Of a stretch of 64,000 nt of DNA, positions 26,501 to 64,000 are shown piece by piece. This DNA is from Bugula neritina (taxonomy: Eukaryota; Animalia; Bryozoa), in contig OZ037765.1 of NCBI GenBank assembly GCA_964035545.1, positions 31,309,504-31,373,503 on the forward strand, read 5' to 3'. How positions within the stretch are numbered: position 1 is the first letter of the stretch; the number at the start of each line of letters is the position of its first letter. The position numbers were made by a program, and so were the translations under genes. Below the pieces are notes generated by a model. It was not told the DNA's origin and searched no databases. It worked only from the letters and a program-made list of their open reading frames with translations.

Positions 26501-29500
26501 TGTTTGAGGCTGTTGGGAAGGACATCGTATATAACTTGTAAAACCTAAGAAACAGAGTGACATGGCGTGACAGGTGCTATCTTTACCCAATAATACATTT
26601 GAATGACACGAATGAACCTGTGAGTGTAGTACAGCATTTAGTAAAATAAGATGCCCTAAAAGAGGATATTGGAATTCAAACTGAAACTATGCATTCACTT
26701 TTAGAATTGTTTTAAAAAACTGTCAACAAAATAAAAGTAACATAATGGAATAAAGATGGAATAAGAAAAACAAATAACTACTAAAAACGTTATTTTCTGG
26801 TAGAATTTAGAAACTGACATATCCACGACTATAATACAGCACCAAAACCATTGGTAATAATGAGATTCTTATGGTGAACAATATAAAACCCTTCAGGTCT
26901 ACATATTGTACTGTGGATGTACAGACCTGTAGAGAATTGATAAGCAGTTGGGGAGTAGATTGAGCTTCTGGTTGCAGTAAGGGTTTGAGGAAGTACTCAG
27001 TGCATGTAGGTATGACGTGAAGTAGATTATCGGCGAGTGTGTAGACTATGTGCCAAAGAGCATTGCGAGCCCCTTCATACTGTATACTCTCTGCACAATG
27101 GTTCGAAGGTGCAGAATTCACAGGCTATGGATAAGAAAAACATGTTTATAAATATTGGCAGTATAAACATTAGAATAATTGTTGTGGAAATACAAAAAAA
27201 ATATTGAATAAAAATTGAAATTTATAACCGCGCTGCTAATTTGACCCGCATCAAGATTCATTAGAGCTTCACTCCGATAATCTAAACTGATAATTTAACT
27301 TGTAAAGAAAAGAAAGAACACTCACTAGTTTTAAAAACATTTATTCATAGAAAAAAAGTCATCATACATTAATATAGAATTGCTCACCATTGAATCTGAC
27401 ATGACCTCGGCTGTAGTAGTTGTTTTCTTAGGCTTAGGGCCTCGTTTAGCACCAATTTTACTGTCAGAGAGCTGAAATAAAATGTCAAATTATTAGTAGA
27501 TTTTCCTGATCAGTAACCACTTCATGTAATGAGTTCAAATTCTAGGTTTACAGTCGCCATCCCTGTGAGAATCCCTGATAGAAAGGTTTTTTTGTTAAAC
27601 CAGGCTAAGAAATTCTTCTTATGCGGCAGAGGAGTAATTATTACCGGATGCCTTCCCTAATATCACCAATGACCTTTACTGGGGTTCAAACCACTGACCT
27701 TGTGTTTACTAAGCCAACGCTCTAACCCCTAGACCACGGCTGCAAGTAATGGTCACTGATTGTACACATATGCATATCTCACCTTGAGCTCATTGAAAAG
27801 AGTAAGAATTCCGATCTGGGAGTCACACGTCAGGTTTGAGGAGTCGTCCACTACAAGAGCAGAGTACACAGAATAGTTCAGTACTACGTGCAACAAGAAA
27901 CTGCTGTGGTATTACCATAAGACCTAACAGATCAGTAAAACTGTGTGAGCTTGGCAATAGACAATTCAAGTAGCTGCACTCTGAGGAAAACCCCCCCAAA
28001 TTAGAGTCATATTAATGCAAGTGCAGACACTGTACAACATATAAATAAAAATATATGAAAATTACCTGCTGCTAGAATAACTAGAATACCAAATAGTACT
28101 AATACCAGAGTACTGATACTAGATACTAATACTAAAGTACTGATACTAGAGTACCAACACTAAAGTACTAACACTAGAGTACTGATACTAGATACTAATA
28201 CTACATTGTAGAGTACTGACACTAGAGTACTAACACTAGAGTACCATCACTAGAGTACTGATACTAGAGCACTGATACTAGAGCACTGATACTAGAGTAC
28301 TGATACTAGAGTACTGATACTAGAGTACTGATACTAGAGTACTGATACTAGAGTACTGATACTAGAGTACTAAGTACTGATACTCAGCAAGTCATACTTG
28401 ATAAGGACAGACCATCAGCCAGAGGGGTCTGCTTGGTGAAGGCACAGAGAGCTGAAGAGAGATTCCTGAAGACTTTGTCATTTGGAGGGACGTCTCTTGC
28501 TGTGCACAGAGTCAACACGGTACACAGTTTAGTGCTTGCCATGTTCTAGAAGTATACCACACAACCATATCATCACCATACTGAGGTGTGTTTATTCTCA
28601 ACTTACCAAGCACATGTATTTCATAATATAAATAAACTTAGGGAAGAATTTTGTGCTAACCATACCCACTGACATGTGAACAAAAGGTGCACCAACTTTA
28701 TAAGTCATGTCATATGTGATCTAAAACTATGTATACTCTATTTAATCTAAAAATGAATAATCTACAACTACATGATCCAGAATCTACAAATGTATAACAT
28801 GCAATCTACAAATGTATAATATATGCAGCCATAACATGTTATATTGGGAGGAAAACTGCTGAGTAGTTACCTGGAAGAAAGGGTACACTTCCTTTTTGAT
28901 AACTTCCATAAATGGACGGATAACAGGAGTGAGCTTTGGAGGAAGACATTGTAAGGAAGTGAGAGCACTGGCCAGGCAAAGTTGCACTCTTAAATATATA
29001 CAAACATAATATAATATATAATATAGAAGATAATAATATATATAATATAACATACAAGTATAATATAACATACAAATATAATATATAATATACAAGAATA
29101 ATATATAATATAATATAAAATATAATATATAACATACAAATATAATATATAATATAATATACAAATATAATATACAACATACAAATATATTATGTAATAT
29201 AATATACAAATATGATCCCTGGAAGGCTGAAAGGCAAGCCGTGAGTGACAGAGTTGCTTCTCATAGTGATTTTAAACAGATGGAGTAACAGCTAAATGAG
29301 TGAGAAAAACTGCAGAGAAAAATCAGCCAACCTCATGTTAAGCGAGGAGTAATCCTCCCTCAGCTGGTTCACTGTCAGTAACAGACTGCTGGCGTGTTCA
29401 CTGAACCTTGTCTGAGCCGTCTTCTTCAACTTAGACTTTATACTTTCAAACTGTGTAGTGGCCAACTGCTGTGCCGATTCAATTGTAAACACAGACCTGT

Positions 29501-32500: not shown

Positions 32501-35500
32501 AGAAAAATATAAACAAAATTTATAAACAAAAATTAGGCTAGAAGCTTCATGTTTGCAGTTAAAATATCATATCCTTGGCATTAGTTGAAATTTTAGTGGA
32601 CATATTTGATTAATTTAAAAACCTTTGAAAAGTTTAAATATAAAATATTTCAGCAACATAAGCTCCTATTTCAACCTCTATCTACATAATGTTTAAATTT
32701 ATGAAACTATTTACAGTGAACATTCATCATGATATACCATAATGATAGTGACAGAGTGTTTGCATTCATGATGACTCAGCCCAAGAACTTGTACTTACTG
32801 TAAATATATGGCGAGTTATTTGAAGAGGTTTATAGTGACTCACTATGAGTATTTACAGTGACTTACTATTTGTATCTACAGTGACTTACTATCAGTATCT
32901 ACAGTTACTTACTATGAGTATCTACATTCTACAGTGACTCACTATGAGTATCTACAGCAACTTACTATGAGAATTTACAGTAACTCACTATGAGTATCTA
33001 CAGTGACTTACTGTAAGCTATGAAGACGATCAACTGTGAGAAGGGCCGAGAGGAAGGACATAATACTGTGCGTAGAGGAAGTGAGGTCATCAAGGTCAAG
33101 CAGTGCATCCCAGAGACTCTGCATCAGTGTACCCAGCTACAGGACAGGGAATAAACTGATAACATACATGTATACACTAGAGTTGTCTTCTCATAATGTA
33201 TTACAAGTAGAAGATGACAATCCTTGTATTGACAGCTACGATGTTGTAATAAAATCACTCGCTATTCTACTGAAATCTCAGAAATTAATTAGAAAGAATA
33301 AAATTGATAAAATAAAAAAGAATTTAAATAAATAAAAAATATTCCATATAAAGTTAAAGAAGAGATACATTGACTGTTGTATAGTTTATGCATATACAGG
33401 TAAGAAGTTGCTGAGCTTCTCTTGGTAATAAATAAGAGCCACCAGCACTAGACATGAAGGGAGCACCTGCTGAGGAATGACAAGAGGAAGTTTGTCAACG
33501 ACAGACAGCAGACAAGTGGCTGTTACAGATCTCACGTCATCAACATTGTCATTAATGGAGCTTAGAAGGGACTGCCAGATACCTCCAAACTGAGTCACCA
33601 AGTCCTGAATACAATAACATACCGAGACTATACTGTATACAGAGTGTAGATAATGTATATATGAAATGTAGCCAGAATTTTGATAAAATATACATTAAAT
33701 ATAAAGAAAAATATATAATATAAAAATACAGACAAAATGCTGATGAACTCATTTCCTGAATGAACTAATCAAGTTTTACTTATCTAACCTAAAATCAACA
33801 TTTTTTAATAATTACTCACAATTTTGCATTGTTTCATGTGTTGCATGTAAACCCAACAAAAAAGCAGCAAAAACCGACACAAACTGCAATTCCATTCTGA
33901 GAGTGACAAATTGTAAATAAAATACACAAACCTGTTTGACAGCAATAACGTATTTAAGACCGAGAATCACACCATATCTGACCTCCCAAGTCGGGTGGGC
34001 AATAACCTCCCCCAACTTGTTCACAGCTGCCAGTACACTAGAGTCTGGGAGGTAGTTACAGAGAGTTCCCAGAGCTTGAGCACAGGTTTCTCGCACTGGA
34101 GCCACCACCTGCACAATGCAACACTTGAAGATTGGATATCAGAATAACTCATAACAAGAAAACAAGAATTGGAGCTAAAAACTCACAATATAGACGTGAA
34201 GTCATAGCATTAAGACTGGGTGTGCAAAGTCATTCTTATGAGTATGACAGTCAATAAACGCATTCTTCACATGAATGGTTATTCTAATAATAGTTGTGCA
34301 AAAGGAGTGATGGTTTAGAAATGTTGCACTCAGAGATATGATAACATCAGTGCTAGAGTTATTCAGTATGAATTGAATTCCTTAAAATAGACCATCAGTG
34401 TATAAGCTGTAGTAGCATGAGCTTCTAGAATATGTTTCAGTGACTGTATACACTGTAGTTACTGTGTACACTGTAGTGACTGTATACACTGTAGTGACTG
34501 TATACACTGTAGTTACTGTATACACTGTAGTTACTGTGTACACTGTAGTTACTGTATACACTGTAGTTACTGTATACACTGTAGTTACTGTATACACTAT
34601 AGTTACTGTGTACACTGTAGTTACTGTATACACTGTAGTTACTGTGTACACTGTAGTTACTGTATACACTGTAGTGACTGTATACACTGTAGTGACTGTA
34701 TACAGTGTGTAGTTACTGTATACACTATAGTTACTGTGTACACTGTAGTGACTGTATACAGTGTGTAGTTACTGTATACACTGTAGTTACTGTGTACACT
34801 GTAGTTACTGTGTACTCTGTAGTTACTGTATACACTGTAGTTACTGTATACACTATAGTTACTGTGCACACTGTAGTTACTGTGCACACTACACTGTGTT
34901 CCACTCACCTCATCAGAGATGTAGTCACCAAACCTGTCAAGCACTAACACACACATCAGTCTTATAGACATGTTCTCCAGCCATCTTTGGTTATTCTTCA
35001 CAGTCTAAAGACACACACTGTACACATTGGCAAGTATACAGCATATACACACTTATACACAGAGCAGTAGATAAACGCACGCACATTAGCCAATGTATAG
35101 CTTATATAAACATACATTGTTAGAAGTTGTGGCCCCTGCAAAACCTCCACAATGCTTGATGACTTCACGCAGAAGGGTGGCAGCACCATGACGAGTCTCC
35201 CAACAGCTGCTGAACAAGTCATTGCATAAAATCTCACAGAACTCGAGAAATGGCCATTCGTACTCCTCTGAATCCTGCATAGACAGTAGTATTAGTAGAT
35301 TTGTAGTACTACATACAGAGTAGTACTACATACAGAGTGGTACTATATACAGAGTGGTACTATACACAGAGTAGTACTATATACAGAGTAATACTATACA
35401 CAGAGTAGTACTACATACAGAGTAGTACTACATACAGAGTGGTACTATACACAGAGTAGTACTATATACAGAGTAGTACTATATACAGAGTGGTACTATA

Positions 35501-41449: not shown

Positions 41450-41930
41450 GTGCTGTATAAACGTGAATCCCTTTTGTATAGAACGCAGAGATTTTTCACT
41501 TGTACACGGGCGGACAACACATTTTATACTGCGAGCCATTTTGGGGTTGCTGCTTCTAAATAATCAAAGTTACACCTGATTGGTCAATGTTCCCAAGTCT
41601 TTGCAAAGTTCATATTTTTCTGACCAATACCGATATTCAATTGAAAACAACCTTGACACATCTTTTTTAAATAAAAACTTGAAGCAAATCCGGGGAGCGT
41701 AAAAACGTATCGTTAGAATTGCATTTATACAATAGATTGAAACTATAGCTTCCGTCCAAGTGGCAGAGGACGAGCATATTATAATATATTTATTCTATAC
41801 GTATATGATTGAACTAGTTTGTGTGCTGCCGTATTGAAACGTACGAGTCCTGTCGCTGGCAGCTACAGTGGAGGTTTTCGGGAGCGCTTAGCTCAATATC
41901 TCCTTTCGATGCTATCCTTTACGTATGTAT
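41450..41930. promoter_or_regulatory. Probable bidirectional promoter between BTAF1 (-) and the egalitarian-like gene (+)
   Basis: CpG-enriched patch between two low-complexity tracts. YY1-like GCCATTTT (41535-41542), ATTGG (41579-41583), CCAAT (41624-41628) and a plus-strand donor TAC|GTATGT at ~41922. Confidence 0.5.
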
Positions 41931-45700: not shown

Positions 45701-46621
45701 TAATTCTTCTAACATTAATTTTAAGAAAAGTTTTAGTTCCACAAAAATTCTAGGTTTCTGAGACACCTAAATTTGACTCCTTTAGGTGTCTCGTAAAGCT
45801 GGGTAAGGTGATAATGGCAGTCTCTGCAGTCAGCTAATTATGGTGATTTGATATAATATTATGTGTTGCCTTTATGCATCCTCATAAAAGCAATGAACCT
45901 AATGCCTCAATACAGTGAATAGGAAATTTTCCTACTTCACAATACTGCCTGTGAAAGCAGTTCTTTGTGTCTAGAAAGGTAATCTGGCATCTCAGGTGTG
46001 GTTGCTAACTATAGGCAAATGAGATTGTTCAATAAACATCAGTGCTACTTAATGAAATGTTCCCGGCATCTTTGGTCATTTTGTTGTTGAATAACATAAG
46101 AGACGGACAGCAATTACTGTAGTTGTGTCTAGTGACACAATGCATTTCTCAACTCATTGTTAACAGTTGATTGTTGACTTTCGATTTCGATGGTGTTAAA
46201 GCTTTTTTCTGGTAGCTCTTTAACAGTCGGGTAAGTTTTGAGCATAGTTGATAGTACACTCACCTGAAAGCCTCTCTGTGACTAGTGTGGGAGTCAAAAT
46301 AATAGAATGTTGATTTTCTGTTTGCCTTCAATCTGCTGTGCGGAACTGCAAAAATTTATGAACCCTAGTATAGGCCAGCTGCCTAAAAGAATCGAAAACT
46401 GCTGGTTGTATGCAATTTTGCTGGGCTATGTTTTGTTTAGATCAAGTATGTATAAACTGTTGCATCGTTGTTTTCTCTTGTTTACGAATGAGAATAGGTA
46501 GATGGCAGCATATCTTTTTATCTCTTCATATTTTAGATTGAGAAAGGATTCATTCTTTGGTGCAGTAAACTCTTCCACAGACCAGATTTTCGTCTGAATC
46601 TCAGCTGAAGACACACTTAAG

Positions 46622-49217
46622 ATGGCGGATGAAGCTGGGCAGAAAGCTATGCTGCACTTTATAGAGATCCTCATGAACAGCTCTGCACCACTTTCTATAA
46701 GTCAGTTAGCTGGTCGTTTCGGAAGCAAAAATTTCACTCCAGAAATGAGGACTGCTGCAGGGGGCAATGAAGAAGGGCTGAAGTCCTTCCTGACTAAATA
46801 TCCTTCTCTCTTTAATATTGAAGGTAGGTATATGCAATGCTTATACAGTTTATATGTAAAGTTTAGAAAATAGAACTAGGCAAAATTATTCATGGTTTAG
46901 GATGAATGCTTGGAAAAAGCTAACAAAATTTTATAACGGAATGTTTCCAGTAGCAAGTTTTGTACAAGAAACGTTTGGGGTGAAAACATTTTTTATTTTG
47001 AATATAAGCAGTTTATACTATAGCATGTGCTGTTGATCATCTCAACCTTTTGAATAGCATCAATGCTTTCCAAGCTGTAACCAAGCAGTCCTAGCAACTT
47101 TAAAATAAGGTTGAGAATTTGGAGTTGTTTTCACCACAGAGTATGAAGCATTTTCCTCCAACTAGACTAGGTGCTCTTCATTCAGCTTGAAATGGGAATA
47201 GTACTCTTTGATCTAATGCTCGCAAGACAGAACTTAAAGCAGCATTTGACATTATTTTGTGTCTCCGGATATAAATATTGGAAGGGAATTATAAATTATT
47301 GATACAGCAATAGAAATTAGCTTTAGAGGTCTTCATATTATGTCTGTTTTGTGCTAGTTCACTCAAAGAGTAAATGCCTTTAGACATCACAATGCTACTG
47401 AGATACCCTTTACATCTTACAGGCTAATATTGCTCTAACATTTTATACATATTATATGTAACAAGTATTTAAATGCCCTAAATAAGTATGTTGTTGTATT
47501 ATTATACAGTTGATGGTTTACTCATTTGATATCATTTGATAAACTGTGCCATGTAAAAATGAATTATGCGTTGCAAATACCCAAACAAAATATCAGGGTA
47601 TTTGCAACATCATTTATATACCTGTATGTACCACCCATTCATTTATTGATTTGACAGTGTTGTTGTATATTTTTAGGCAATATGGTTTCTGTGAACATGC
47701 ATGGCACGCCCCTTCCTGAGAGCTCCGATGACGTTGACTCAGAGTCTAACAAGCCGCTGATGTCGGCTGTGGAGGTGGAGCTGAAGGCAGTCGACTACTT
47801 CCAGGACAAGTTGCTGAAGAAAGGGCTGGTCATGCCAGTCAAGAGCCTAGCCGGTCATCTCTCTCAGGCCCCGCTGCACATGAGGAACGTGGTGGGCCCC
47901 CAGACCGAATTCAGGAGCTTCCTTGTCAAACACAAAGATATATTTGTGGTTACAGAGGACGAGATGGTTACTTTAACTGAAGATATATTAAACAAACCAA
48001 GGTCTCAGGCAACAATGAACAGAAGCGAGAGTGACAGCAGTCTTGATTCTAATACAGCGTCTAAATCTGTTAGTAAAGATAGCAAGAGTAAGCCCTCTCC
48101 TATCACCATGACGGCCAGTGAGTATAAAACCATGAAGTTTTTGAAAGAGCTGGTTGAGCGAAATGAAGGAAGAATCTCTCTTGTGGGCGTGCTCAGTCAG
48201 GTGCCTGATGCTGCCGACTCTATTAGAAATATTCTCAGTGACAGCGAGGCCAAGCTGACTAGTTTTGTTCAGAAGTTTCCTAATATTTTTGTCCTGGTGG
48301 ATGACATGGTGACTCTGAAGAAGACGAAGCTGAATGTAATAATGGCGGGGAGTCGTCCAGTCACTAGTCCCAGTAACAGTGTCACTGACAGTTCTCTGTC
48401 CCCGCCATCCGATAGTCACTCGGAGAGTTACAACACGTCTACTTCCTCTAATATGACTGACTCACTGGAGAGACCCTCCTTGTTGTCTCAGTCTAGTGGC
48501 TACTCTCACTCTTCATACTCCACTCATCGCACGCTCAGCAATCACAAAGGTCCTGTCTACCATCTCGCAAAGCTCTGGGGAATCATTGACCTGGGGCGTC
48601 ATGAGCACGTCTTCTTTGACAGGTCTATACTTCCCGATGGGTATGACGACCTGGTGAAGAATTTCAAAATAGGCCAGATTTTGAGATTTAATGCTGTTCG
48701 AGCTGCACGAGGTAGCCGAGCTCGCTGGAGAGCCACTCACATCTGGCGAGATGGAGAAGATATTCGCAGTATGTATGGCATGAACGCCACTTTCTCCATT
48801 ACCGGCTTTAACCCATCTGGCGTAGACGATGAAATGAAAAAGTTACTTACTCAGGCCAATGCTAATCTAAATACAAACTCGAATGTAACTAACGACAGTT
48901 ACTCATACGTAGATGCTAGTCAGAGTAACACTGGCTGCATACCTGTCTGGACAACGAAACCCAAGGCAGACTTAGACGAGTCCAGCAGACGGAGCTTAGC
49001 TTCCCTTTCCATGGTGCCTGATAGTAGTTATAGTCTTAAATCTTCAAACCAAGATGGGAAGTCATTGATACCAGGTTATATGCTAGTTCCAACTGCTAAT
49101 GCAAAGCTCATCAAGTCCTGCACTAATGGAACAAATCAAATAACCCGAGAGATAGGTTGTCAGACTATTTCTACAGGAGACATTATGGCTACTCAGTTGT
49201 ACCAAGAAGAAGATTAG
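46622..49217 (+). CDS. Egalitarian-related protein, 580 aa: three Egl-type winged-helix domains, a cold-shock/OB-like domain and an LC8-binding tail; exons 46622-46823 and 47677-49217
   Basis: The N-terminus (AMLHFIEILM..LAGRFGSKNFTPEMRTAAGGNEEGLKSFLTKYPSLFNIEG) and second repeat (AVDYFQDKL..PVKSLAGHLSQA) resemble recalled Drosophila Egalitarian repeats. The C-terminal GCQTISTGDIMATQLY resembles the Egl dynein-light-chain site. No 3'-5' exonuclease-like domain is present. Confidence 0.85.
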
Positions 49218-50476
49218 GTCAACTGTCACATCTATTTATTCAAATATGTTTGAAAATGTTTAGAATTTAGAGTTAGTTGTTAAAAGTTTGCCATTTGGTT
49301 TTAAACTAATCAACTACACAGTTTTAATTAATCAAGATAGCAGCTGTAGTGCAGATCCTGAGCAACTTAGGAATTATAAACTAACACACATTGCATACTT
49401 ATCAGAGTGAATTATTTTACTATGTGATAATATTGGTGCTGAACCTAAATTATGCTTCAAACTTCCAAATTATTGTTAGTGTAGCCTCAGATCTGAGAGT
49501 AATGTGTTCAGTCATATTTTCAATAATTTTTGCATAGTTTTTTTGGTTGAAAAGTTTTAGTTAACATTTTTTATTTATAAACTATTTTTATGTTAAATTT
49601 TACTTTATTTTTGTTTTGTTGTAATATCGAAACCCTATCATGAGTATACCCACAGCTTGTTATGTATGTTGTGAATTATTTTGTCAGTTGTCGAACAACC
49701 AACATTTATTTATTGCAATTTGTTAATGCTCACCACCCTTTAATTTATTATTTTAATATAAATTAGTATATACAAATTATGTTGTTAAAAATAAACTGTT
49801 ACAACTTTAACTTTGCTACACATTTGTTTATTGCTTACATTTATACTACAATTTTTAATTTTGGCTGCTAATTTTAATGACTGCATAGCGGCTTCATTTG
49901 CAATCATTGCTCATCAATTGGTCAATACATTGTGAATTAAATAGGAAAATGCAAAAAAATGACACCAATCCACGAACTCTTATTATTGCAATTTCAATTA
50001 GACTCTGTTTGGACTGTATGTGATTTTTGTTAATATGATATATAGCATGGCCCATACTAGAGGCATGTGCATCATAATCAATCAATGAGAAAAATCATTG
50101 ATAGTCGGAAAAGTGCGGCCCAACTACTTGTGTTTGCTTCGTGTTATGTTTTAAAAAGAATATATTATTTAGTATAGGCAAATTAAAACTTATATAATGC
50201 AAACTACCATTAGCTAAATTCTATTCTAAAGAGTTAAAATCAACATAATATTTTGTGATCTAGCGCATTTATCGTAGGAGTTGTCTTGTAAAAATAGAAG
50301 TTGTCAAGCCCCAACTTCAGCATAAACAATGTCGCTAATATTCTTCGTAAATATTATATAGGCAAATTGTATTGCACTATAATAATTCGAGATCAGAAAA
50401 CGATTTAAGACGTTTCTCAAAGTTATCTTGGAGCAATACCAAATCGCATTAAATCGATTTCACACTTTCAGAAAAC

Positions 50477-53400: not shown

Positions 53401-56400
53401 GCAACGATGGTGATGTTTGAGTTAGTCACCTTAGTGGAGGCCTGGTGGCTAGCCACCCCATGGAGTATGGTTAGTAGATATTTACTGGCTGCAATCGCTC
53501 TGGTGATTGTATGCCGGTAAGATGTGAAAGACGTGCAGCATGAGACTTACTTTTGTTTTGACTATTGTGTACGGCTCTTTAACTTCAGGCAGCTTTTGAT
53601 AATTCTAGCTGCTTGGTTTATAGTGAAAAGCAGAATTAAGTCGTACACAATAGTCATTTCACACATGCTGAGTTTTTCCTTGTCAGGACTTGGGTTGATG
53701 CACGTCCTATGGGTTTGTTACAATGATGAACAACTCAGCTGTGATGGGATCCCCTTGTTTCACTGACAGTTTTTCTAGATTAAGACATTTTGTTTGAGAT
53801 GTCATCTAACGACATGTTTTGTTATGTATTTTCCAGGAGGTAAAACACCAGATGTGTCTAACAAGGCTAGAACTTACACATCCATCATGCAGGAGCAGGA
53901 ACTGCGCAGAGACCAGGTGAGCTCCTAGCGCCAGGTGTGGCACCTCCTGTTCATAATTCCCGTGCTTGTAAGCCCTTCACGTTTGGTTTCTTTGATTCTT
54001 TTGTTATTTCAGAGAGGAGTTGAAGACAAGATGCGGGAGAAGGCCAAGACGGGTGAGCTGAAAGCTAATGGCTCAGATGTGACGGTGCAGCAGAAGAAGA
54101 AAAGGCGGTGGGATCAGGCTGTAGAGGCCGATGCTAACAACCAGCCAACTCCCAAAAGAAGAATAGACGCCCCCGCCACACCATCACAGGCCAGCTGGGC
54201 CGAGACACCCGGTCGGATAGCCCCTGATGCCACCCCTGGATCCGCACAGACTCCTGGCACAGTTAGACACTGGGCTGAGACTCCTGTTCACGTGTCGGCC
54301 GGCAGCATGACTCCGGGACGTGAGCCAACGACTCCCGGACACAGTGGAGCCACGCCCAGTGGGAGACGTAACAGATGGGATGAGACACCAAGAGGCACAG
54401 GGGGTTAGTTGACAGTCTATTAGATGTTGGCATTATTTGATCAAGAGAGAACTTGTCATGTAGCTTCGTGATTCTCTGCCATTCAAATGGCTCACGGCTG
54501 TTCCTTAGATCTGTTTTCTGTCTATTTTTATTTTTTTTTTTCAATTTTCTCTCTTCAGTCAGTTTTAATTTGTGTTAATTTCTCATTGCCATGTCATGTG
54601 TTGCTCTTTGTTAATATACTAACTGAGTGATGCACTGCTTCTACAGAAACCCCCGCACACTCTGGGTGGGCTGAGACCCCTAAGGCTAACCGAGCAGGGG
54701 AGGATAAGATAGAGGATACTCCATCAGCCTCTGTGTCTAAGAGACGCTCCAGATGGGACGAGACTCCTGTAACAGCTGGAGCTATGACGCCCTCGATGAC
54801 CCCCGGGGCTCACACCCCTGGTGGTGGCACACCTGGCGGGTTCACTCCAGGGGGTGCGTTTACACCAGGGGGTGCTACACCCAGTGGCTTCACCCCGGGA
54901 GGGATAACTCCTAGTGGTGTGACTCCAATTGGAAATAAGGCTATGCAGATGGCTACTCCCTCTCCAGGTATGTGCCACTAGCGTTTAGTTGAAAGCCGTT
55001 TGCTTGCAGTTGACATTGACCTTCACTTAATAGACAGTGACTGTTGACCTTCACTTTTATTGTCTTCCAAGATCCATGCCTCACAGAATGTTAATTTCTA
55101 GGTCAACTTATGGCAATGACACCGGAGCAGATGCAGGCATTCAACTGGCAGAAGGAGATAGACATCAGGAACAGACCTCTCTCAGACGATGACCTGGACG
55201 CAATGTTCCCCGAGGGATACAAAGTACTGCAACCCCCTGCAGGCTACGTGCCCATACGTACGCCGGCTCGTAAACTCATGGCCACTCCAACACCTATGAT
55301 GGGCGGTACTCCAGGCTTCAAGATGCAAGGAACACCAGACCACCAGGCCAACAAGGATCTGGTGGTGGACATGCAGCCTAAAGGCAACCTCCCAACTCTC
55401 AAACCCGACGATATGCAGTACTTTGATAAGTTGCTGGTGAGTCACTCCTTCTGTAGTTATTCCATCTTTAACATGTATCTACTAGCATATATCTATTAGC
55501 ATGTATCTACTGGCATATATATATTAGCATGTGTCTACTAGCATATATCTACTAGCATAATTATATATACTGGCTTATATCTACTAGCATATATATACTA
55601 GCATATATATACTGGCATGTGTCTACTAGCATATATCTACTAGCATATATCTACTAGCATATATCTACTGGCATATATATATTAGCATGTGTCTACTAGC
55701 ATATATCTACTAGCATATATATACTGGCATATATCTACTACCATATATATACTAGCATATATATACTGGCATGTGTCTACTAGCATATATCTACTAGCAT
55801 ATATCTACTAGTGTATGACTGAATCTCTAGGTGGATGTGGACGAGGAATCGTTGACCCCAGAGGAGCAGAAGGACAGGAAGATTATGAAGTTTCTGCTAA
55901 AGATAAAGAACGGCACACCGCCCATGAGAAAGGCTGCCCTCCGTCAAATCACCGACAAGGCGAGAGAGCTGGGAGCTGGGCCCCTCTTCAACCAAATATT
56001 GCCCCTCCTCATGTCCCCTACTCTGGAGGACCAAGAGAGACATCTGCTCGTCAAGGTGTGTGGTGTAACACATTTGTCTTCATGATTTAACTAATCTACT
56101 TTTACTGCTGGACTCATCTTAACAATAGAGACTATTTATAGAGACAAGTTAGCAGTATCCCTGGTGATGCTTGATTAAAGCATTTCATGTTTCTGATCTG
56201 TTAATGTTCATTATTTTTGTATGACAGGTGATTGACAGAATCCTGTACAAACTGGATGATCTCGTTAGACCCTACGTTCACAAGATATTGGTGGTGATAG
56301 AGCCTTTACTCATTGATGAAGATTACTATGCTAGAGTGGAGGGTAGGGAGATTATCTCTAACTTGGCCAAGGTGAGTGCTATTTGTATTACAGATTTACT

Positions 56401-59400
56401 GAAACATCTGTAAGTTGAGAAATCATCAAGTAAAGTGGAATGTTCTGTCATTGTAATGTTTAAATTGACTTGCAGGCAGCTGGCCTGGCCACTATGATCT
56501 CTACAATGAGACCAGATATTGACAACATGGACGAGTACGTACGTAACACCACAGCCAGAGCGTTTGCCGTTGTAGCCTCAGCTCTAGGTATTCCTTCACT
56601 ACTGCCCTTCCTAAAGGCTGTGTGCCGCAGTAAGAAGTCGTGGCAGGCCAGGCACACAGGCATCAAGATTGTCCAGCAGATCAGCATATTGATGGGTTGT
56701 GCTGTGCTGCCACACCTCAAGAGTCTTGTGGAAATCATCCGTCATGGTATGTTGTATAAAGACACTTCCAGCCAATCATCAGCACTAATGTGCACTTTGG
56801 TATTTTATTTTTTTTGAAAGTGAGAAGAATGATTTTTATCATTTCTATAACCAGCTTAGCTGACTTTCTTTAAAGTAACATCAAGTTTTTAACTGTATTT
56901 GCTGAAAGTTTTATGTTTTGGTGTGCAGGTTTGCAGGATGAGCAGCAGAAAGTTCGTACTATCACAGCCTTGTCACTGGCAGCACTGGCAGAGGCAGCTA
57001 CGCCGTACGGTATTGAGTCGTTTGATACGGTTCTCAAACCTCTGTGGAAGGGTATTCGTCAGTTCAGAGGAAAGGGTCTAGCCGCCTTCCTCAAAGCTAT
57101 TGGCTATCTCATCCCACTGATGGACGCCGAGTACGCCAACTACTACACCAGAGAAGTCATGTTGATCCTGATACGAGAGTTCCAGTCTCCCGATGAGGAG
57201 ATGAAGAAGATCGTGCTGAAGGTGGTGAAGCAGTGCTGTGCCACTGATGGTGTGGAACCTCAGTACATCAAAGATGAAATCCTGCCGCCTTTCTTTAAGC
57301 ATTTCTGGAACCAGAGGATGGCCCTTGATAGACGTAACTACAGACAGGTGGGTCTACCCAACATGTCTGATTTCTTCTAGATGCTATTGAGGATAATTAC
57401 AAGAATGCATTATTCTAACATGTTCTTCTAGTGTGCTAAATATTTTATTTTTTCATATCATAGAAAGAAAACATGTTTATACTTATTTGTTAGGGTGTGT
57501 AGATTGCTAGTCTCACCCTTGACTTTGTTGTCTGTCTGTATTGCTTAACTGTAATGCCTGCTGAGCCCTCTGTTCACCTGTTTGCAGCTGGTTGACACCA
57601 CCGTGGAGATCGCCAACAAGGTGGGTGCAGCTGAGATCATCAACAGAGTCGTAGACGACCTGAAAGACGAAAGCGAGCAGTACAGGAAGATGGTGATGGA
57701 GACTATAGAGAAGGTGATGGCCAACCTGGGGGCTTCAGATATCGACTCGAGACTCGAAGAGCAGCTTATTGACGGCATTCTCTACGCCTTCCAGGAGCAG
57801 ACAACTGAGGTAAATGACTTCCACAAGTTATTCACATGTGTCTAATTATGTTTAAAAACCACTCTGTTCCCTTGCTTTGAATTGCTCAGTGCAGGATGCT
57901 AATATGGATAGATTTGTAGTTGTGTTAACCTATGGTTGTGGTTTCATTCAATTGACGCGGTCCCCATGCATCGAATGAAAAATCTATTCCCATAATGCAA
58001 AGCATGGGGACGTAGTGCATGAGACCAGCTGGTGGTTTTGTTTGCTGTTGACTCTTCTGTAAAACATAGAGTTTTTTGTTTATAACTCTTCGGAATAAAA
58101 TTTCAGGATGTGGTAATGTTGAATGGGTTTGGAGTTGTGGTAAACTCCCTGGCCAAGAGGTGTAAGCCCTACCTCCCGCAGATATGCGGTACGATTCTGT
58201 GGCGTCTCAACAACAAGTCAGCTAAAGTGCGTCAGCAGGCAGCCGATCTGATCTCGCGTATTGCAGTTGTGATGAAGACTTGCCAGGAGGTATGCTTCAC
58301 TTCCTGTATTTATATATCTTTATTATTGTTTCGTGTCTGCTGTAGCAGCACTCTATTATTTCTATTGACTATGGAGAAGTGTATACACAGTAATTATTAC
58401 ATTTTCTGCTCTGTGAACTATACTTTTTAATAGAATTCAAACTTCCCCCTGCAGTGTACTAATGTGTATATACGTCGCAGAGCAATGATGTGTATATACT
58501 GTACTACACATTACAATGTATGATGCATACTATACAGTGCACTGTGTAGTATATACAGCTGATGGGTGTATACTTCCCACACAGTGTACTCTGTGTATAT
58601 ACCACACATGTGTTTATACTAATGTGGTGTTACAGGAGAAGCTAATGGGTCACCTGGGTGTTGTACTGTACGAGTATCTTGGGGAAGAGTATCCAGAAGT
58701 TCTGGGCAGTATTCTCGGAGCCCTCAAGGGCATCGTCAATGTCATCGGCATGACCAAGATGACTCCGCCCATAAAAGATCTCCTGCCAAGGCTGACACCC
58801 ATTCTAAAAAACAGGTACTGGGGCTAGCATTACTAATATTTACCTGTTTCAGTTCCAAAGCTGTTATCTGATTGTTTATGGTTTGTGAAGTTGTGTCCTC
58901 CATGCCTGCACCGGTAAAATGTTTGTGTTTGTAGACACGAGAAGGTGCAGGAGAACTGTATAGATCTGGTGGGCAGAATCGCCGACAGAGGCTCTGAGTT
59001 TGTACCTGCCAGAGAGTGGATGAGAATCTGCTTTGAGCTCCTGGAGTTGCTAAAAGCCCACAAGAAGGCCATCCGAAGAGCCGCTGTTAACACCTTTGGT
59101 TATATCGCCAAGGCTATTGGGTATGTAAACTACGAGTATGGAGCTATAGTACTGTGGTAGTCTAAGTAGGACTTAATTGCTTTTTGTATAATACTTATGG
59201 TTTGAAAAACTAAAAGTATTTGTTCTCATGTGAAAAATTCCAATTTGGATTTTTGTCAACAAAATATGTAAGAATTACCTGTCTTCTCTCACTGAGAGAA
59301 AGCTGTCACATGTCGCTCACTGTATGGGAATTAATAATTTCTGGTTTTTATTCCAGTCCTCATGACGTGTTGGCAACGCTGCTGAACAACTTGAAGGTGC

Positions 59401-60659
59401 AGGAGAGACAGAACAGAGTGTGCACCACCGTGGCTATTGCTATAGTTGCTGAAACCTGCTCCCCCTTCACCGTCCTACCTGGTCTAATGAACGAGTACAG
59501 AGTTCCCGAACTGAATGTACAGAATGGTGTCCTCAAGTCCCTGAGCTTCATGTTTGAGTATATCGGAGAGATGGGTAAAGACTATATCTATGCTGTAACA
59601 GGACTGCTGGAAGATGCCCTCATGGACAGGTATGCTATGTCAACAAGTATAGGAATGGCTACTTATGTTGAAGAATATATAATGTAGTTGCTCTAGTTGC
59701 CTTAGTTAATTATTTTTAGCTCGTTTAGAATATACAAGTTGTGATAAACTCCTCTTGCAGCCTTGTGCTGTAGTTGAAGTATATTTTACCTTCTAATATC
59801 ACTAAAGCTTTACATCTCATCCATTTGTAGGGATCTGGTTCACAGACAGACTGCTATGTACACAATTCAGCACCTTGCACTCGGTGTTTACGGGTTCGAC
59901 TGCGAAGACGCGTTGAACCATCTTCTCAACTATGTGTGGCCCAATGTTTTTGAGACTTCCCCTCACGTTGTGCAGGCCTTCATGGGTGCAATAGAGGGGA
60001 TGAGGCTTGGTCTCGGCTCAACTAGAGTCTTACAGTATGCCCTACAAGTATGTACTGCTAAATATTCTTCTAGAGCTTTTTATGTTTACAACTTGTGCTA
60101 TAGGACAGTGTTTCAGTGTAACACTTGCTCCCATATAGAATGGCATGCTCTTCTAGTAGGATTTCGTCAACTTAATCAAGTTGAATTTCCTCTTTTTTAC
60201 GTACTTGCGTTATTCTATTTATGTGTGTATGTATAATATGGACATATTAATTTGAACAAAACTTTCAAATTCTAGAAGCTGTAAGATAGGGGGATAATCT
60301 ATATACTAAAAGTTTTTTCACAACATATTGAGTAACTGGAAAGTAAGATAGGCCCATAAAATGTCTGTTTGGCAGTTGTCATGATAATTTCAAACTTACG
60401 TTTTTGAGAGTATACTTAACCTGGGCAGAGCTAGTGGATTTTCACTGTGTACAACTATTTGCTATGTTTTTGGCTATAAGATCATGTAATTATTTTGCAG
60501 GGTCTATTCCATCCAGCTAGAAAAGTAAGAGATGTATATTGGAAAGTGTACAATACGATATATATTGGAGCTGAGCATGCCATGGTACCAGCTTATCCCA
60601 GGATGGAAAATGATGATCGAAACACCTACATGCGATATGAACTTGATTATGTGTTATGA
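50477..60659 (+). CDS. SF3B1: Splicing factor 3B subunit 1 (SF3b155), ~20 exons
   Basis: RWDETP/WAETP ULM and TP-rich N-terminus, [21 protein letters not shown], near-invariant HEAT repeats ([31 protein letters not shown]) and C-terminal RYELDYVL. First exon 50477-50501, with a YY1-like AACATGGCGG over the ATG. Confidence 0.98.
52540..53836 (+). other. SF3B1 intron 4 with candidate cryptic/decoy exons (acceptors at 53029, 53434, 53686)
   Basis: The intron interrupts DPFADG|GKTP. It has internal branch-point/polypyrimidine/AG signals and clustered donors (53261, 53470, 53503, 53517). Confidence 0.65.
55480..55811. repeat. 14-bp minisatellite (TAGCATATATCTAC) x~23 in an SF3B1 intron
   Basis: Direct tandem array visible in the sequence. 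Confidence 0.95.
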
Positions 60660-60875: not shown

Positions 60876-63800
60876 CTAACTGTAAGAATTAGCTCTGTGT
60901 TTGGGAATGAAGAAGAACCCATCTGGTACAGGACCCAGTAACATCTCACTGTAAATATACAAACATTCTAACCAAATACAAGTTTGTTTACAAAAATGAC
61001 ATATAATGCCGTAACTCGCCATTAACTTCACTACACATGTATTCTATCTGCAGTTTTAAACAAGATTAGCTTTTGGTTCACAAAAACATACGTTGCTTAC
61101 TCTAACTTCTTAATTCCACAAATAAACCATATAATATGGTTATATTATAATATATACCTTTTAAATATTAAACTCATTTAAGTGGTCATTTATACAATAA
61201 GAGGTTATTAGCCTATACAGTCTACACTAATTTCAAATTCATTTGGATCTCAAGTTGAACAATAACAGTTTTTATTAACGGAAATCACTTACCAACAGGA
61301 TATAATGACACAAGGTAAATAAATACCAACTCAAAAAGAAAGTAAATGGCAATGCACTAATAGACACATTAGCCCATATCACAATATTAATTGAATCTCC
61401 TAAACCCAAGAGTTTAGTACTGACCTAATTTTTACCCAATCAGCTGAGTTAGGACTGGCCATTAGTGTCTCTAGATCGTTTCTTCCAAAATAGGGGCTTG
61501 GTCGTTCGTTAATTTTCTGAGGAATTCTCTCTAGCAGTCCTATTGGAATGTATCTACAGGAGACATTGGAAATAAAAAGTTGTTCAATTTAGTTGAAAAT
61601 CACAGACAGCTTCAGTGAGACAATCAGTGATAATCAAAAAAGATTATTTCCAATAGTTTTCCAGTAGAAGGTTCAAATATAACCAGTGACAAGGTACCAA
61701 GATTGATATACCTAATCATAACCAAGGAATACCTGCATAGAATCATACAATAAATCATCACTCAACCTGTGCAGAAAAGATATCCACTCTAGCATGAACC
61801 TCCTAGTTGTCTCCACCCCTTGTGTATCTGATCCCCAGTGTTCCAGTCCATAGTTACTGAAGTCTCGTAAAATATCCAGCCGTTCAGAAGATGATATGTC
61901 CCAGTGTCGCTGCTCCTTTATCTCAGTGAACAGCCAAGGCTTGATTAGTGCGCCTCTAAAACCAGCAAGTCACCTGACATAAAACACGATGTGCTGAGTA
62001 GATTGTATTCTGTGTTAAAAAAGATCAAAATACAGTTGATCTGCTATAACCGGAATTTAGGTACAGTAGTGAAGAAATTTTAAGAGCCAAAGCTTTTTAA
62101 TTTCTTAATAAAGTTTGATTTGGGTTGAGGGTTGAAATTCCTCACGAGAACATAACTTCTTTTGCTACAGTTTTAATCTAGAACACACTTTTGTCAATTT
62201 CTTCATTACTGCACCTACTTTTAATTTCATGACTGCATTGATTGCAGTTTGATAATAACTCTATGATTCAAACTAATTCAAAATGATTTCAATTCATTTC
62301 TTAACTCCGAATACTTCAATCACAACAAATTTTTTCCACTCGGTCACTAAATAACACTTGATCATTCAAATGTAAATATTATCTAAAGACAACATTTTAA
62401 CTAAGAAGAGTAAAGGAGAATAAAGCAACCTGGCAATCATGGTGCCAGACACGCTGGTCTTCATTGCTGTGTTATAGTCTTCAAAGGACAGGATATCTCC
62501 TCCCCCATACAGGGGCATAGGAGAAGACAACTTCGCACACTCATCTATGTAACTCCAGTCAGCACACTTTGTGTATCGTTGCTCTCTCGATCTACCATGT
62601 AGCTGTAAGCATTCAATAGACAACCATTACTATGGAACTTCATCACATGACATGAAGTCATACTAAACTATTAAAACTTCATTCATTGATAGGATTTCAT
62701 TTAAACCAACATGCATTTGACAAATGTACAAAAATAGATGAATGTAAAAACCATCAATATTTATATAAAATTGCATGCTACTAGTTCACTAGTACTAAAG
62801 ACCATTTTTTAGTCCAATACACAACTAATATGTTTCAATTCAACAATAATGAAGTTTACACCCTGTGACTTGCACACTTTGAATTTCATGTAAAATTTTC
62901 CTTTAACCCACCAACAACCAATACTGCTAGCATATACCTCAGTGCCAAATCCAGTGTGTTCAAAGTTGGGCATACATTATAAGACCAAATGTTAAAGATT
63001 TTAATCCTTGTATCTATTGCAACATACACACAAATGTGTATAAAACATACACTATAGCTACATGGTAAGTATGCATATAGCTACATGGTAACTTACAGTG
63101 GTGAGGGCAAGGTCCCAGGTTTTCATTTTGGTTACCAGGCTATGTGCAGTGCTTTTGTTTTCAGATATACCAGTGCGGATCTTTGCAGTAATTGGTATAT
63201 TCGACACATTTACCATCGCACGCACTATCTCATGGAACCTGTTCACTCGCCTCATTAATGCTGATCCTGAACCCTAGATAGTCGAGAGTCAAGATTGCAT
63301 ACAAATTTAATTGGTAATAACTTTTACTAACAAGTATTAAATAAGTATACAAAACATAAAAAAGACTATTTTAACTGATGATTAACTCATCACATTAGAA
63401 GAGAAATTCTGTAGTAAATAATAAGGAGGTCACGAACGTGCATATTGAAAACGTGAACGTGTAGTTGTCTCCCCCAGCCATATTGAGCATAAGTAAAAGA
63501 TGTCCACTAAATCGTATGACTGAAAGTTACGTAATTGTAGGAAGTTGTGGGTTGAACAAACCTGATCAAAAATCAGATCAATCGGACATCCTACATTAAT
63601 GTCTATAAAGTCCAGTTCACAAGTCTCTGTGAGGAGTTGTGTGCACTTTGACATAGAGTCGGCGAATGCCCCACACAGTTGAACACCAAAGACATCTTCT
63701 GAAGAATGACGCTTTACAAGAGCCCACTCTGATGAGACTCCCTGGAGAAGCTTTGTAGCTACCGCCATTTCTCCGCAAGTTATGTCAGCACCATATGTCT

Positions 63801-64000
63801 TGCATACACGACGAAAGGGGAGATTTCCAACCTGGTGAGACATATGCACAGCTTCACAGAATACTAGATAACTTAGAAGATGCACGATAATATGCAGTAC
63901 ATAGAACAGAATTAATGTAACCACTTACGGTAGTTAAGGGAGCAAGGTAGAGTTTGTTGTCAAAGTTGATGGTCTTTTTCTCACCAGGCTTAATAGTAAA
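60876..64000 (-). CDS. DUS3L: tRNA-dihydrouridine(47) synthase DUS3-like, 3' part (5' end beyond the window)
   Basis: [77 protein letters not shown] and C-terminal [22 protein letters not shown]. Stop at 60876-60878. Confidence 0.95.

What the first reader, a model, noticed from the sequence alone, without database searches (positions are those of the whole stretch)
46622..49217. Egalitarian paralogue with a cold-shock-like domain in place of the exonuclease domain: candidate new dynein-RNA adaptor
Seen: three winged-helix-like repeats ending in F(L/V)xK(Y/H/F)xx(L/I)F, a Ser-rich linker, then a beta-rich module KGPVYHLAKLWGIIDLGRHEHVFFDRS..FKIGQILRFNAV..RARWRATHIW (48546-48746). This module has the RNP1/RNP2-like pattern of cold-shock/OB folds. 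The tail is REIGCQTISTGDIMATQLY (from 49146). Established: Drosophila Egalitarian links mRNA stem-loops to dynein through its N-terminal ~80 aa (BicD binding) and a C-terminal SQT motif (LC8/Dlc binding), and has a central 3'-5' exonuclease-like domain. Inference: this protein keeps both motor-coupling ends but swaps the RNA-recognition core for a single-stranded-RNA-type fold, suggesting a parallel, uncharacterised mRNA transport pathway.
Basis: partly seen in the sequence, partly recalled or inferred. Interest (0 to 1): 0.75.

Follow-up and report, generated by a model that had tools for sequence, protein, structure and literature searches.

The report
Spiralian Egalitarian with OB-fold core
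This is a real, spliced moss-animal gene of the Egalitarian-like family already linked to planarian regeneration, and its unnamed central domain is predicted to be an S1/cold-shock-type fold, so it likely ties RNAs to the dynein motor with a different RNA-gripping module from the fly protein.

Summary
A spliced gene encodes 580 aa: three Egalitarian winged-helix domains, a 70-aa beta module, an Egl-type QT tail and no exonuclease domain. It is a bryozoan gene, and the family is already published: planarian Smed-egal-1 and its spiralian homologues (PMC12579938) have the same parts, and egal-1 RNAi disturbs regeneration polarity. That paper left the central domain unnamed. Here it models as a five-stranded OB barrel (pLDDT 92.5) whose best matches are S1 and cold-shock domains (Z 7.5-8.9). 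Of 152 relatives, 79 carry the OB module, 33 the exonuclease and none both; the two types separate on a tree. So this looks like the spiralian counterpart of Egl, not an extra paralogue, though the genome could not be checked. A priapulid protein also combines Egl domains, OB modules and the tail, so the OB form may be the older one. BicD, LC8 and RNA binding remain untested.

The parts
41801..41922 (+). alternative non-coding first exon (start approximate)
   Evidence: loose end of contigs in runs X1, X3, X11 at 46532 matches window 41900-41917 exactly; GT follows at 41923
46108..46230 (+). second alternative 5' UTR exon (start = end of contig cover)
   Evidence: GT..AG joint skipping 306 nt in runs X1 and X2
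46537..46823 (+). first coding exon; ATG at 46622
46824..47676 (+). 853-nt GT..AG intron inside ED1
   Evidence: skipped in 4 of 4 runs laid
47677..49803 (+). last exon; stop ends at 49217, 3' UTR to about 49800, AATAAA at 49790
46640..47690 (+). Egl domain 1 (winged helix, aa 7-72, split by the intron); BicD-binding domain in Drosophila Egl
   Evidence: PF23713 E 1.6e-18; aligns to Egl 9rvy_D; mean identity 73% in family
47769..47978 (+). Egl domain 2 (aa 99-168); keeps Ser130/Gln131, equivalent to Egl Ser127/Gln128
48111..48323 (+). Egl domain 3 (aa 213-283), divergent in this species
   Evidence: second PF23713 stretch; pLDDT 86-97; mean identity 31%
48360..48530 (+). Ser-rich disordered linker, much longer in the bryozoan-like rows than in other family members
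48540..48752 (+). predicted five-stranded OB barrel, S1/cold-shock-like (aa 356-426)
   Evidence: AlphaFold2 pLDDT 92.5, pTM 0.82; VIA-align Z 7.5-8.9 to S1 and CSD domains; invariant H363, W368, H376, H378, F380, W418, W424 in 71 of 71
49146..49205 (+). C-terminal QT motif (aa 558-577), predicted LC8/Dlc site
   Evidence: Q563, T564, T567, A572, T573 invariant in 71 of 71; aligns to the Egl tail

Best explanation
This gene is the bryozoan member of the spiralian Egalitarian-like (Smed-egal-1) family, and its product likely works as an RNA cargo adaptor for dynein that uses a predicted OB barrel where fly Egalitarian uses an exonuclease-like module. Shown here: gene structure, splicing, three Egl domains, the QT tail, absence of the exonuclease domain, and family membership. 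Predicted: the OB fold. Inferred from Drosophila Egl: ED1 would bind the BicD C-terminal coiled coil, the QT tail would bind LC8 and help dimerise the protein, and ED2 would read an RNA minor groove through Ser130/Gln131. Inferred from the fold: the OB barrel would bind single-stranded RNA (a loop or flank) through His363, Trp368 and Phe380 and the basic loop before strand 5, so the preferred localisation signal would differ from the bent stem-loops bound by fly Egl.
For: Family profile hits Drosophila Egl ED1-ED2 at E 2.3e-35 and also aligns its C-terminal QT segment. ED1 is the best conserved domain (73%). ED2 Ser/Gln kept in 71 of 71 and 33 of 33 divergent representatives; these residues hydrogen-bond RNA bases in Egl. 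Table S3 of PMC12579938 lists Smed-egal-1 with the same central module, and its Lingula, Crassostrea and Owenia entries match my hits by eye. The OB model is confident and most of the 50 rows of the wide fold search are nucleic-acid-binding S1 or CSD domains. OB and exonuclease cores never occur together: 79, 33 and 0 of 152, still none with a widened OB profile. In planarians egal-1 RNAi and microtubule drugs give the same notum phenotype, and Egal-1 partly colocalises with tubulin.
Against: No binding to RNA, BicD or LC8 has been measured for any member in what I read; the planarian authors call the shared biochemistry 'unclear'. Egl His31 and Cys35, which contact RNA bases, are Ser27 and Gly31 here (69 and 71 of 71), whereas 29 of 29 exonuclease-type proteins keep His/Cys. 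Deleting XAD severely reduces RNA binding by Egl, and this protein has none. The OB module matches RNP1/RNP2 only in part, has no Pfam CSD or S1 hit, no Foldseek match at E <= 0.001, and no single OB family stands out. His363, His376 and His378 are not kept in the 9 divergent acanthocephalan-type rows. LC8 motifs often serve plain dimerisation without dynein.
Confidence: 0.6

Rival explanations
1. The protein is a stationary regulator of translation or mRNA stability in cytoplasmic granules, working like LIN-66, Unr or LOTUS proteins; LC8 would only dimerise it and BicD would not be involved.
For: The Atlas ranks a nematode Lin-66-like cluster second for a family member (0.85, a lead only; PF26288 99%, PF23713 20% of members), and 11 of 120 homologues carry a precomputed PF26288 hit. 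LIN-66 needs its cold-shock domain, forms puncta and controls translation. Egal-1 forms perinuclear foci. ED1 has lost the Egl base contacts.
Against: ED1 and ED2 are far closer to Egl than anything else in the PDB and both Egl ends are kept together. The closest database match to this protein (P0001) has no PF26288 hit. The microtubule-drug phenocopy in planarians points to transport.
Confidence: 0.2
2. The protein is a BicD/LC8-linked dynein adaptor for non-RNA cargo (nucleus or organelles), as reported for C. elegans BICD-1/EGAL-1/DLC-1; the OB barrel would be a protein-binding surface.
For: [quoted passage not shown] The OB module lacks part of the RNP consensus and resembles the DBC1 S1-like domain as much as CSDs. 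ED1 base contacts are lost.
Against: ED2 RNA-contact residues are invariant; the barrel is basic (13 Lys/Arg against 7 Asp/Glu) with invariant aromatic and His residues.
Confidence: 0.15
3. On the evolutionary question only: the first reader's version, in which this gene is a paralogue beside a canonical exonuclease-type egl in the same genome, giving two parallel adaptors.
For: Priapulus, an ecdysozoan, has a protein with Egl domains, related OB modules and the QT tail, so ED-OB genes predate the spiralian split. Only 150 of 481 hits were listed and only 5 of 33 exonuclease-type proteins were looked up, 3 of them named.
Against: The named exonuclease-type records are a tardigrade, scorpions and a beetle, plus nematode and arthropod clusters and Drosophila; none is spiralian. 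The ED1+ED2 tree separates the two types with 100/99 support. The planarian paralogues in Table S3 are all of the central-region type, and the authors describe the exonuclease core as ecdysozoan.
Confidence: 0.15

Closest known systems
Smed-egal-1 (dd_8302) and spiralian Egalitarian-like proteins (Miliard et al. 2025, PMC12579938)
   Same: Three N-terminal modules, conserved 67-71 aa central region with the same core motif, C-terminal Dlc-type motif, no exonuclease domain, length near 580-600 aa.
   Different: Bryozoan member not in their table; longer Ser-rich linker before the central domain; ED3 more divergent. The text I read does not name the central fold; it is predicted here as OB.
Drosophila Egalitarian (PDB 9RVY; PMC13186709)
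   Same: ED1-ED3 winged-helix domains, ED2 Ser/Gln RNA contacts, C-terminal QT motif.
   Different: No ExoHD or XAD; OB barrel instead; ED1 His31/Cys35 replaced by Ser/Gly; 580 aa against 1,004.
C. elegans LIN-66 (PMC11184513; bioRxiv 10.64898/2026.07.07.737059)
   Same: Cold-shock-type domain plus long disordered regions; its cluster carries a winged-helix family that cross-hits with WH_Egal; Gly106/Trp110 have the spacing of Gly359/His363 here.
   Different: In LIN-66 the CSD opens the structured region (aa 101-171), here it follows three winged helices. No direct alignment was possible; homology is a lead only.
S1 / cold-shock OB domains (Lin28, Unr/CSDE1, NusA, Rrp4, DBC1 S1-like)
   Same: Five-stranded barrel, Z 7.5-8.9 over 65-80 residues.
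   Different: Sequence identity 4-26% in the listed rows, no Pfam hit, partial RNP motifs; subfamily cannot be assigned.

Membership tests
Spiralian Egalitarian-like (Smed-egal-1 family) | N-terminal region of three folded Egl-type modules | tested here: met
   PF23713 three stretches; model
Spiralian Egalitarian-like (Smed-egal-1 family) | Conserved 67-71 aa central region | tested here: met
   71-aa module, mean identity 59%; same motif in Smed-egal-1 in Table S3, compared by eye
Spiralian Egalitarian-like (Smed-egal-1 family) | C-terminal Dlc-type motif | tested here: met
Canonical Egalitarian (Drosophila Egl, C. elegans EGAL-1) | ED1-ED3 winged-helix domains | tested here: met
Canonical Egalitarian (Drosophila Egl, C. 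elegans EGAL-1) | Exonuclease homology domain plus XAD | tested here: not met
   no PF01612; the P0122 exonuclease region hits 0 of 121 family proteins at E <= 10; no Egl exonuclease alignment
Canonical Egalitarian (Drosophila Egl, C. elegans EGAL-1) | ED1 base contacts His31 and Cys35 | tested here: not met
   Ser27 and Gly31
Canonical Egalitarian (Drosophila Egl, C. elegans EGAL-1) | ED2 base contacts Ser127 and Gln128 | tested here: met
   Ser130/Gln131, 71 of 71
Canonical Egalitarian (Drosophila Egl, C. elegans EGAL-1) | Binds BicD CC3, Dlc/LC8 and localisation signals | not testable with these tools
Cold-shock / S1 OB domains | Five-stranded OB barrel | tested here: met
   predicted model and fold search
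Cold-shock domain (strict) | RNP1 and RNP2 motifs; Pfam CSD match | tested here: inconclusive
   Trp368 and Phe380 present, second RNP1 aromatic is Ile370 (against the consensus quoted); no Pfam hit; Atlas CSD clusters at 0.88, lead only
Cold-shock / S1 OB domains | Binds single-stranded nucleic acid | not testable with these tools
   needs binding assay
LIN-66 | PF26288 WHD_lin-66 match | tested here: inconclusive
LIN-66 | Sequence homology of the cold-shock domain | not testable with these tools
   no LIN-66 sequence was returned by any search

The most novel reading that the evidence does not exclude
Egl domains + OB barrel + QT tail is the older design of the Egalitarian dynein adaptor. 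Fly and worm Egalitarian are the derived form that gained an EXD1-like exonuclease module, and nematode LIN-66 is a rearranged descendant of the same ED-OB family rather than a nematode invention. The spiralian protein then defines a second code for localisation signals (stem read by ED2, single strand read by the OB barrel) and carries the RNA that sets head-tail polarity at planarian wounds.
Probability: 0.25. Interest if true: 0.78.

Novelty: new member of a known kind. Interest (0 to 1): 0.48.

Why it matters
The gene itself is an ordinary member of a described family. The useful addition is a fold and a residue list for the one domain that the planarian study could not explain. It turns the open question of what Smed-Egal-1 does biochemically into direct tests (mutate the Trp, Phe and His equivalents; CLIP; BicD pull-down). 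It also suggests that molluscs, annelids, flatworms and their relatives couple RNA to dynein with a reader that differs from the one just solved in flies, which matters for oocyte, spiralian-embryo and neuronal mRNA localisation in these animals.

Tried and rejected
No genome is held for this window, so a second egl gene could not be sought. A 'longer' homologue search meant to find spiralian exonuclease-type Egl covered only 1246-3555 aa and gave 2 proteins; a 'shorter' search with the P0122 exonuclease region gave none among 1189 candidates, although such proteins exist: both are uninformative. Complex prediction of ED1 with ED2 gave no verdict (0.03; alignment not used). phmmer of the OB module against the PDB returned only designed beta-trefoil repeats with per-domain E of 24 or worse: rejected as repeat artefacts, the model has another fold. 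Exon 2 alone has no PDB sequence match at E <= 1. No LIN-66 sequence could be retrieved, so that link stays a lead. The idea that the central region is a decayed exonuclease (left open) is rejected: no exonuclease similarity and a confident all-beta barrel. The tree has 142 columns, a midpoint root and a long-branch warning at the tardigrade rows; it shows separation, not direction. One earlier scan note (sea-squirt ZNF598 with winged-helix and cold-shock domains) concerns another protein and was not used. The Berghia preprint hit used 'egalitarian' as a plain word.

Full report
1. The observation. The window holds a gene on the + strand with coding exons 46622-46823 and 47677-49217 around a GT..AG intron; the translation is 580 aa with one terminal stop, and the quoted motifs sit at the quoted coordinates. 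Contigs of 4 of 4 sequencing runs laid skip exactly this 853-nt intron (4 of 18 listed runs were laid; their RNA status is the tool's guess). They also show two alternative 5' UTR exons. A full-length database protein, P0126, has the same junction and differs at 8 of 580 positions; its 90% cluster holds a record named Bugula neritina, and Watersipora subatra is 69% identical, so the DNA is bryozoan. No genome is held.

2. Anatomy. Pfam WH_Egal (PF23713) hits exon 1 once and exon 2 twice. A 19-sequence family profile finds Drosophila Egalitarian (9rvy_D) at E 2.3e-35 through ED1-ED2 and also aligns the family tail with the Egl C-terminal QT segment, a weak stretch by itself. Against the 67 rows after the first four of a 71-row alignment, mean identity is 73% for ED1, 53% for ED2, 31% for ED3, 59% for the beta module, 65% for the tail and 2-19% for the linkers. 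Of the 120 listed homologues (198 found among 7994 candidates), 120 have the beta-module motif and 119 match the tail pattern. An exonuclease region from an Egl-type protein hits 0 of 121 family proteins.

3. The beta module. AlphaFold2 with 63 sequences gives five strands and a short helix between strands 3 and 4, pLDDT 92.5, pTM 0.82; the exon-2 model agrees and leaves the linkers disordered. Against 48,161 chains the best matches are OB folds: PNPase S1 (Z 8.9, rmsd 2.6, 75 aligned), Rrp4 (8.6), NusA (8.3), Lin28A (8.0, rmsd 3.1, 74 aligned), Unr (7.6), DBC1 (7.5). These are near ties at a level the tool calls common, so the fold class is supported and the subfamily is not. Foldseek has no match at E <= 0.001 (best NusA, 3e-3), Pfam none, and the Atlas lists CSD clusters at 0.88 as leads. 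A related module in P0260 scores 24.4 bits on S1-like PF14444, just under its cut-off. His363, Trp368, His376, His378, Phe380, Asp382, Arg415, Trp418 and Trp424 are invariant in 71 of 71. In 9 divergent rows, which include two named acanthocephalans, Trp368 becomes Tyr or Phe and the three His are lost, while Phe380 and both C-terminal Trp stay. The RNP1 match is partial (Ile370 where the consensus quoted has an aromatic residue).

4. What is known. Miliard et al. 2025 (PMC12579938; I read the abstract, sections 10, 11, 12 and 16, passages, Table S3 with cells cut at 400 characters, and review-history passages) describe Smed-egal-1 and spiralian homologues with three N-terminal modules, a conserved 67-71 aa central region and the Dlc-type motif, and named the gene '-like' because the exonuclease domain is missing. 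[quoted passage not shown] The main text does not name the central fold and the review history calls it 'a unique fold'. The main supplementary PDF with Figs S7-S8 could not be opened and may say more. Searches for an OB or cold-shock assignment found nothing: egalitarian + OB fold + dynein, 0 papers; egalitarian + cold shock domain + exonuclease + LOTUS, 1 review in which the cold-shock domain is Unr's; egalitarian-like, only the planarian paper; lin-66 + egalitarian, 0. The library lacks most subscription papers.

5. Comparison with the solved Egl complex. Singh et al. 2026 (PMC13186709; abstract, sections 6, 7, first part of 37, passages) show ED1 binding BicD, ED1 and ED2 reading RNA minor grooves (His31, Cys35; Ser127, Gln128), ExoHD and XAD completing the pocket, and ED3 dispensable. 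A crystal-structure preprint (10.1101/2025.08.03.668247, passages) finds the central region sufficient for RNA binding. This family keeps Ser/Gln in ED2 (71 of 71; 33 of 33 divergent representatives) but has Ser27/Gly31 in ED1, whereas 29 of 29 exonuclease-type proteins keep His/Cys. The fly pocket therefore cannot form as such; half of it is retained.

6. Paralogue or counterpart. A profile search of 1.84 billion representatives gave 481 hits, the best 150 listed. With P0121 and P0122 added, local profiles found the OB module in 79, the exonuclease in 33 (P0122 seeded that profile) and both in 0 of 152; a widened OB profile found none in the exonuclease set. A tree of ED1+ED2 from the 75 proteins that had both domains above threshold (33 OB, 29 exonuclease, 13 with neither detected; multi-domain proteins such as the priapulid one were dropped by that rule) splits the two types with 100/99 support, with the caveats of 142 columns, a midpoint root and a long-branch warning. 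Named OB-type three-ED records are bryozoans, nemerteans, a brachiopod, annelids, molluscs, flatworms and acanthocephalans; one is named for Siedleckia, a parasite of polychaetes (recalled), probably host RNA (inference). Of 5 exonuclease-type proteins looked up, 3 are named, all ecdysozoan. This fits one gene with lineage-specific cores, but the sample is thin and two searches aimed at spiralian exonuclease-type Egl failed for technical reasons.

7. Which core is older. A Priapulus caudatus protein (P0229, P0331) has three Egl domains, OB modules and the QT tail. With it and its like left out of training, three of its OB modules score 26-27 bits against a maximum of 10.2 in 918 decoys. Its first domain is ED2-like, not ED1-like, so it is a separate subfamily. 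A Branchiostoma protein with nine Egl domains and an ATPase domain has one such module at 19.5 bits (decoy maximum 8.4). The pairing of Egl domains with this OB type is thus older than Spiralia, and the direction of the swap is open.

8. LIN-66. The Atlas ranks a nematode Lin-66-like cluster second for a nemertean member (0.85, under the tool's 0.9 bar), and 11 of 120 homologues carry PF26288. Two papers (PMC11184513 and bioRxiv 10.64898/2026.07.07.737059; passages plus sections 10 and 5) call LIN-66 nematode-restricted and show that its cold-shock domain is required. Gly106/Trp110 have the spacing of Gly359/His363 here, but that is a general CSD feature. No LIN-66 sequence could be fetched; the link is untested.

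9. Mechanism and verdict. Most likely (0.6) the protein is an RNA adaptor for dynein: ED1 would bind BicD, the tail would bind LC8 (eight-residue motif anchored on a Gln-Thr triplet in a disordered region, PMC7861614 passages), ED2 would read a stem and the OB barrel a single-stranded part. All binding steps are inferred. Rivals are a granule-based translation regulator (0.2) and a non-RNA cargo adaptor like the worm BICD-1/EGAL-1/DLC-1 complex (0.15; PMC2953438 passages). The gene is a new member of a known family; the new content is the fold assignment, the residue comparison with the Egl structure and the priapulid and amphioxus relatives. Interest 0.48.

Noticed in passing
P0123 (KAF6029701.1), same cluster as this gene: The public 271-aa gene model starts inside the Ser-rich linker and ends in a different tail, so it lacks all three Egl domains and the QT motif; it looks mis-annotated.
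   Followed up: partly
window about 48830-49020: Three short conserved motifs in the disordered C-terminal region (an acidic helix, a motif ending Pro-Val-Trp, and a Met-Val motif) recur across the family; possible partner-binding sites.
   Followed up: no
P0229, P0331, P0213, P0236, P0260: A subfamily with several ED2-like domains, two to six OB modules and usually the QT tail; only the Priapulus records are named.
   Followed up: partly
P0215, P0281, P0283, P0298: Proteins with 4-9 Egl domains and a C-terminal SpoIIIAA-type ATPase domain; P0215 is named Branchiostoma belcheri.
   Followed up: partly
P0122, P0301: Unnamed exonuclease-type proteins with five or six Egl domains.
   Followed up: no
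PMC12579938 Table S3, Lytechinus pictus entry: By eye it has a beta-rich N-terminus, then a helical stretch, then the exonuclease domain; it could join OB, winged helix and exonuclease in one chain. Not tested.
   Followed up: no
window 12552-14222, minus strand: Exons with SAM_PNT and GABP-alpha Pfam hits, a GABPA-like ETS factor gene.
   Followed up: partly
window 63433-63924, minus strand: Dihydrouridine synthase exon, PF01207.
   Followed up: partly
window 53929-60233 and 4515-7030, plus strand: Open frames that look like SF3B1 and a TTF2-like helicase; labels recalled, the four pieces scanned gave no matching Pfam hit.
   Followed up: no
window 22250-22900, 28787-29260, 34385-35004: Short-period repeat arrays that produce long open frames on both strands.
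   Followed up: no
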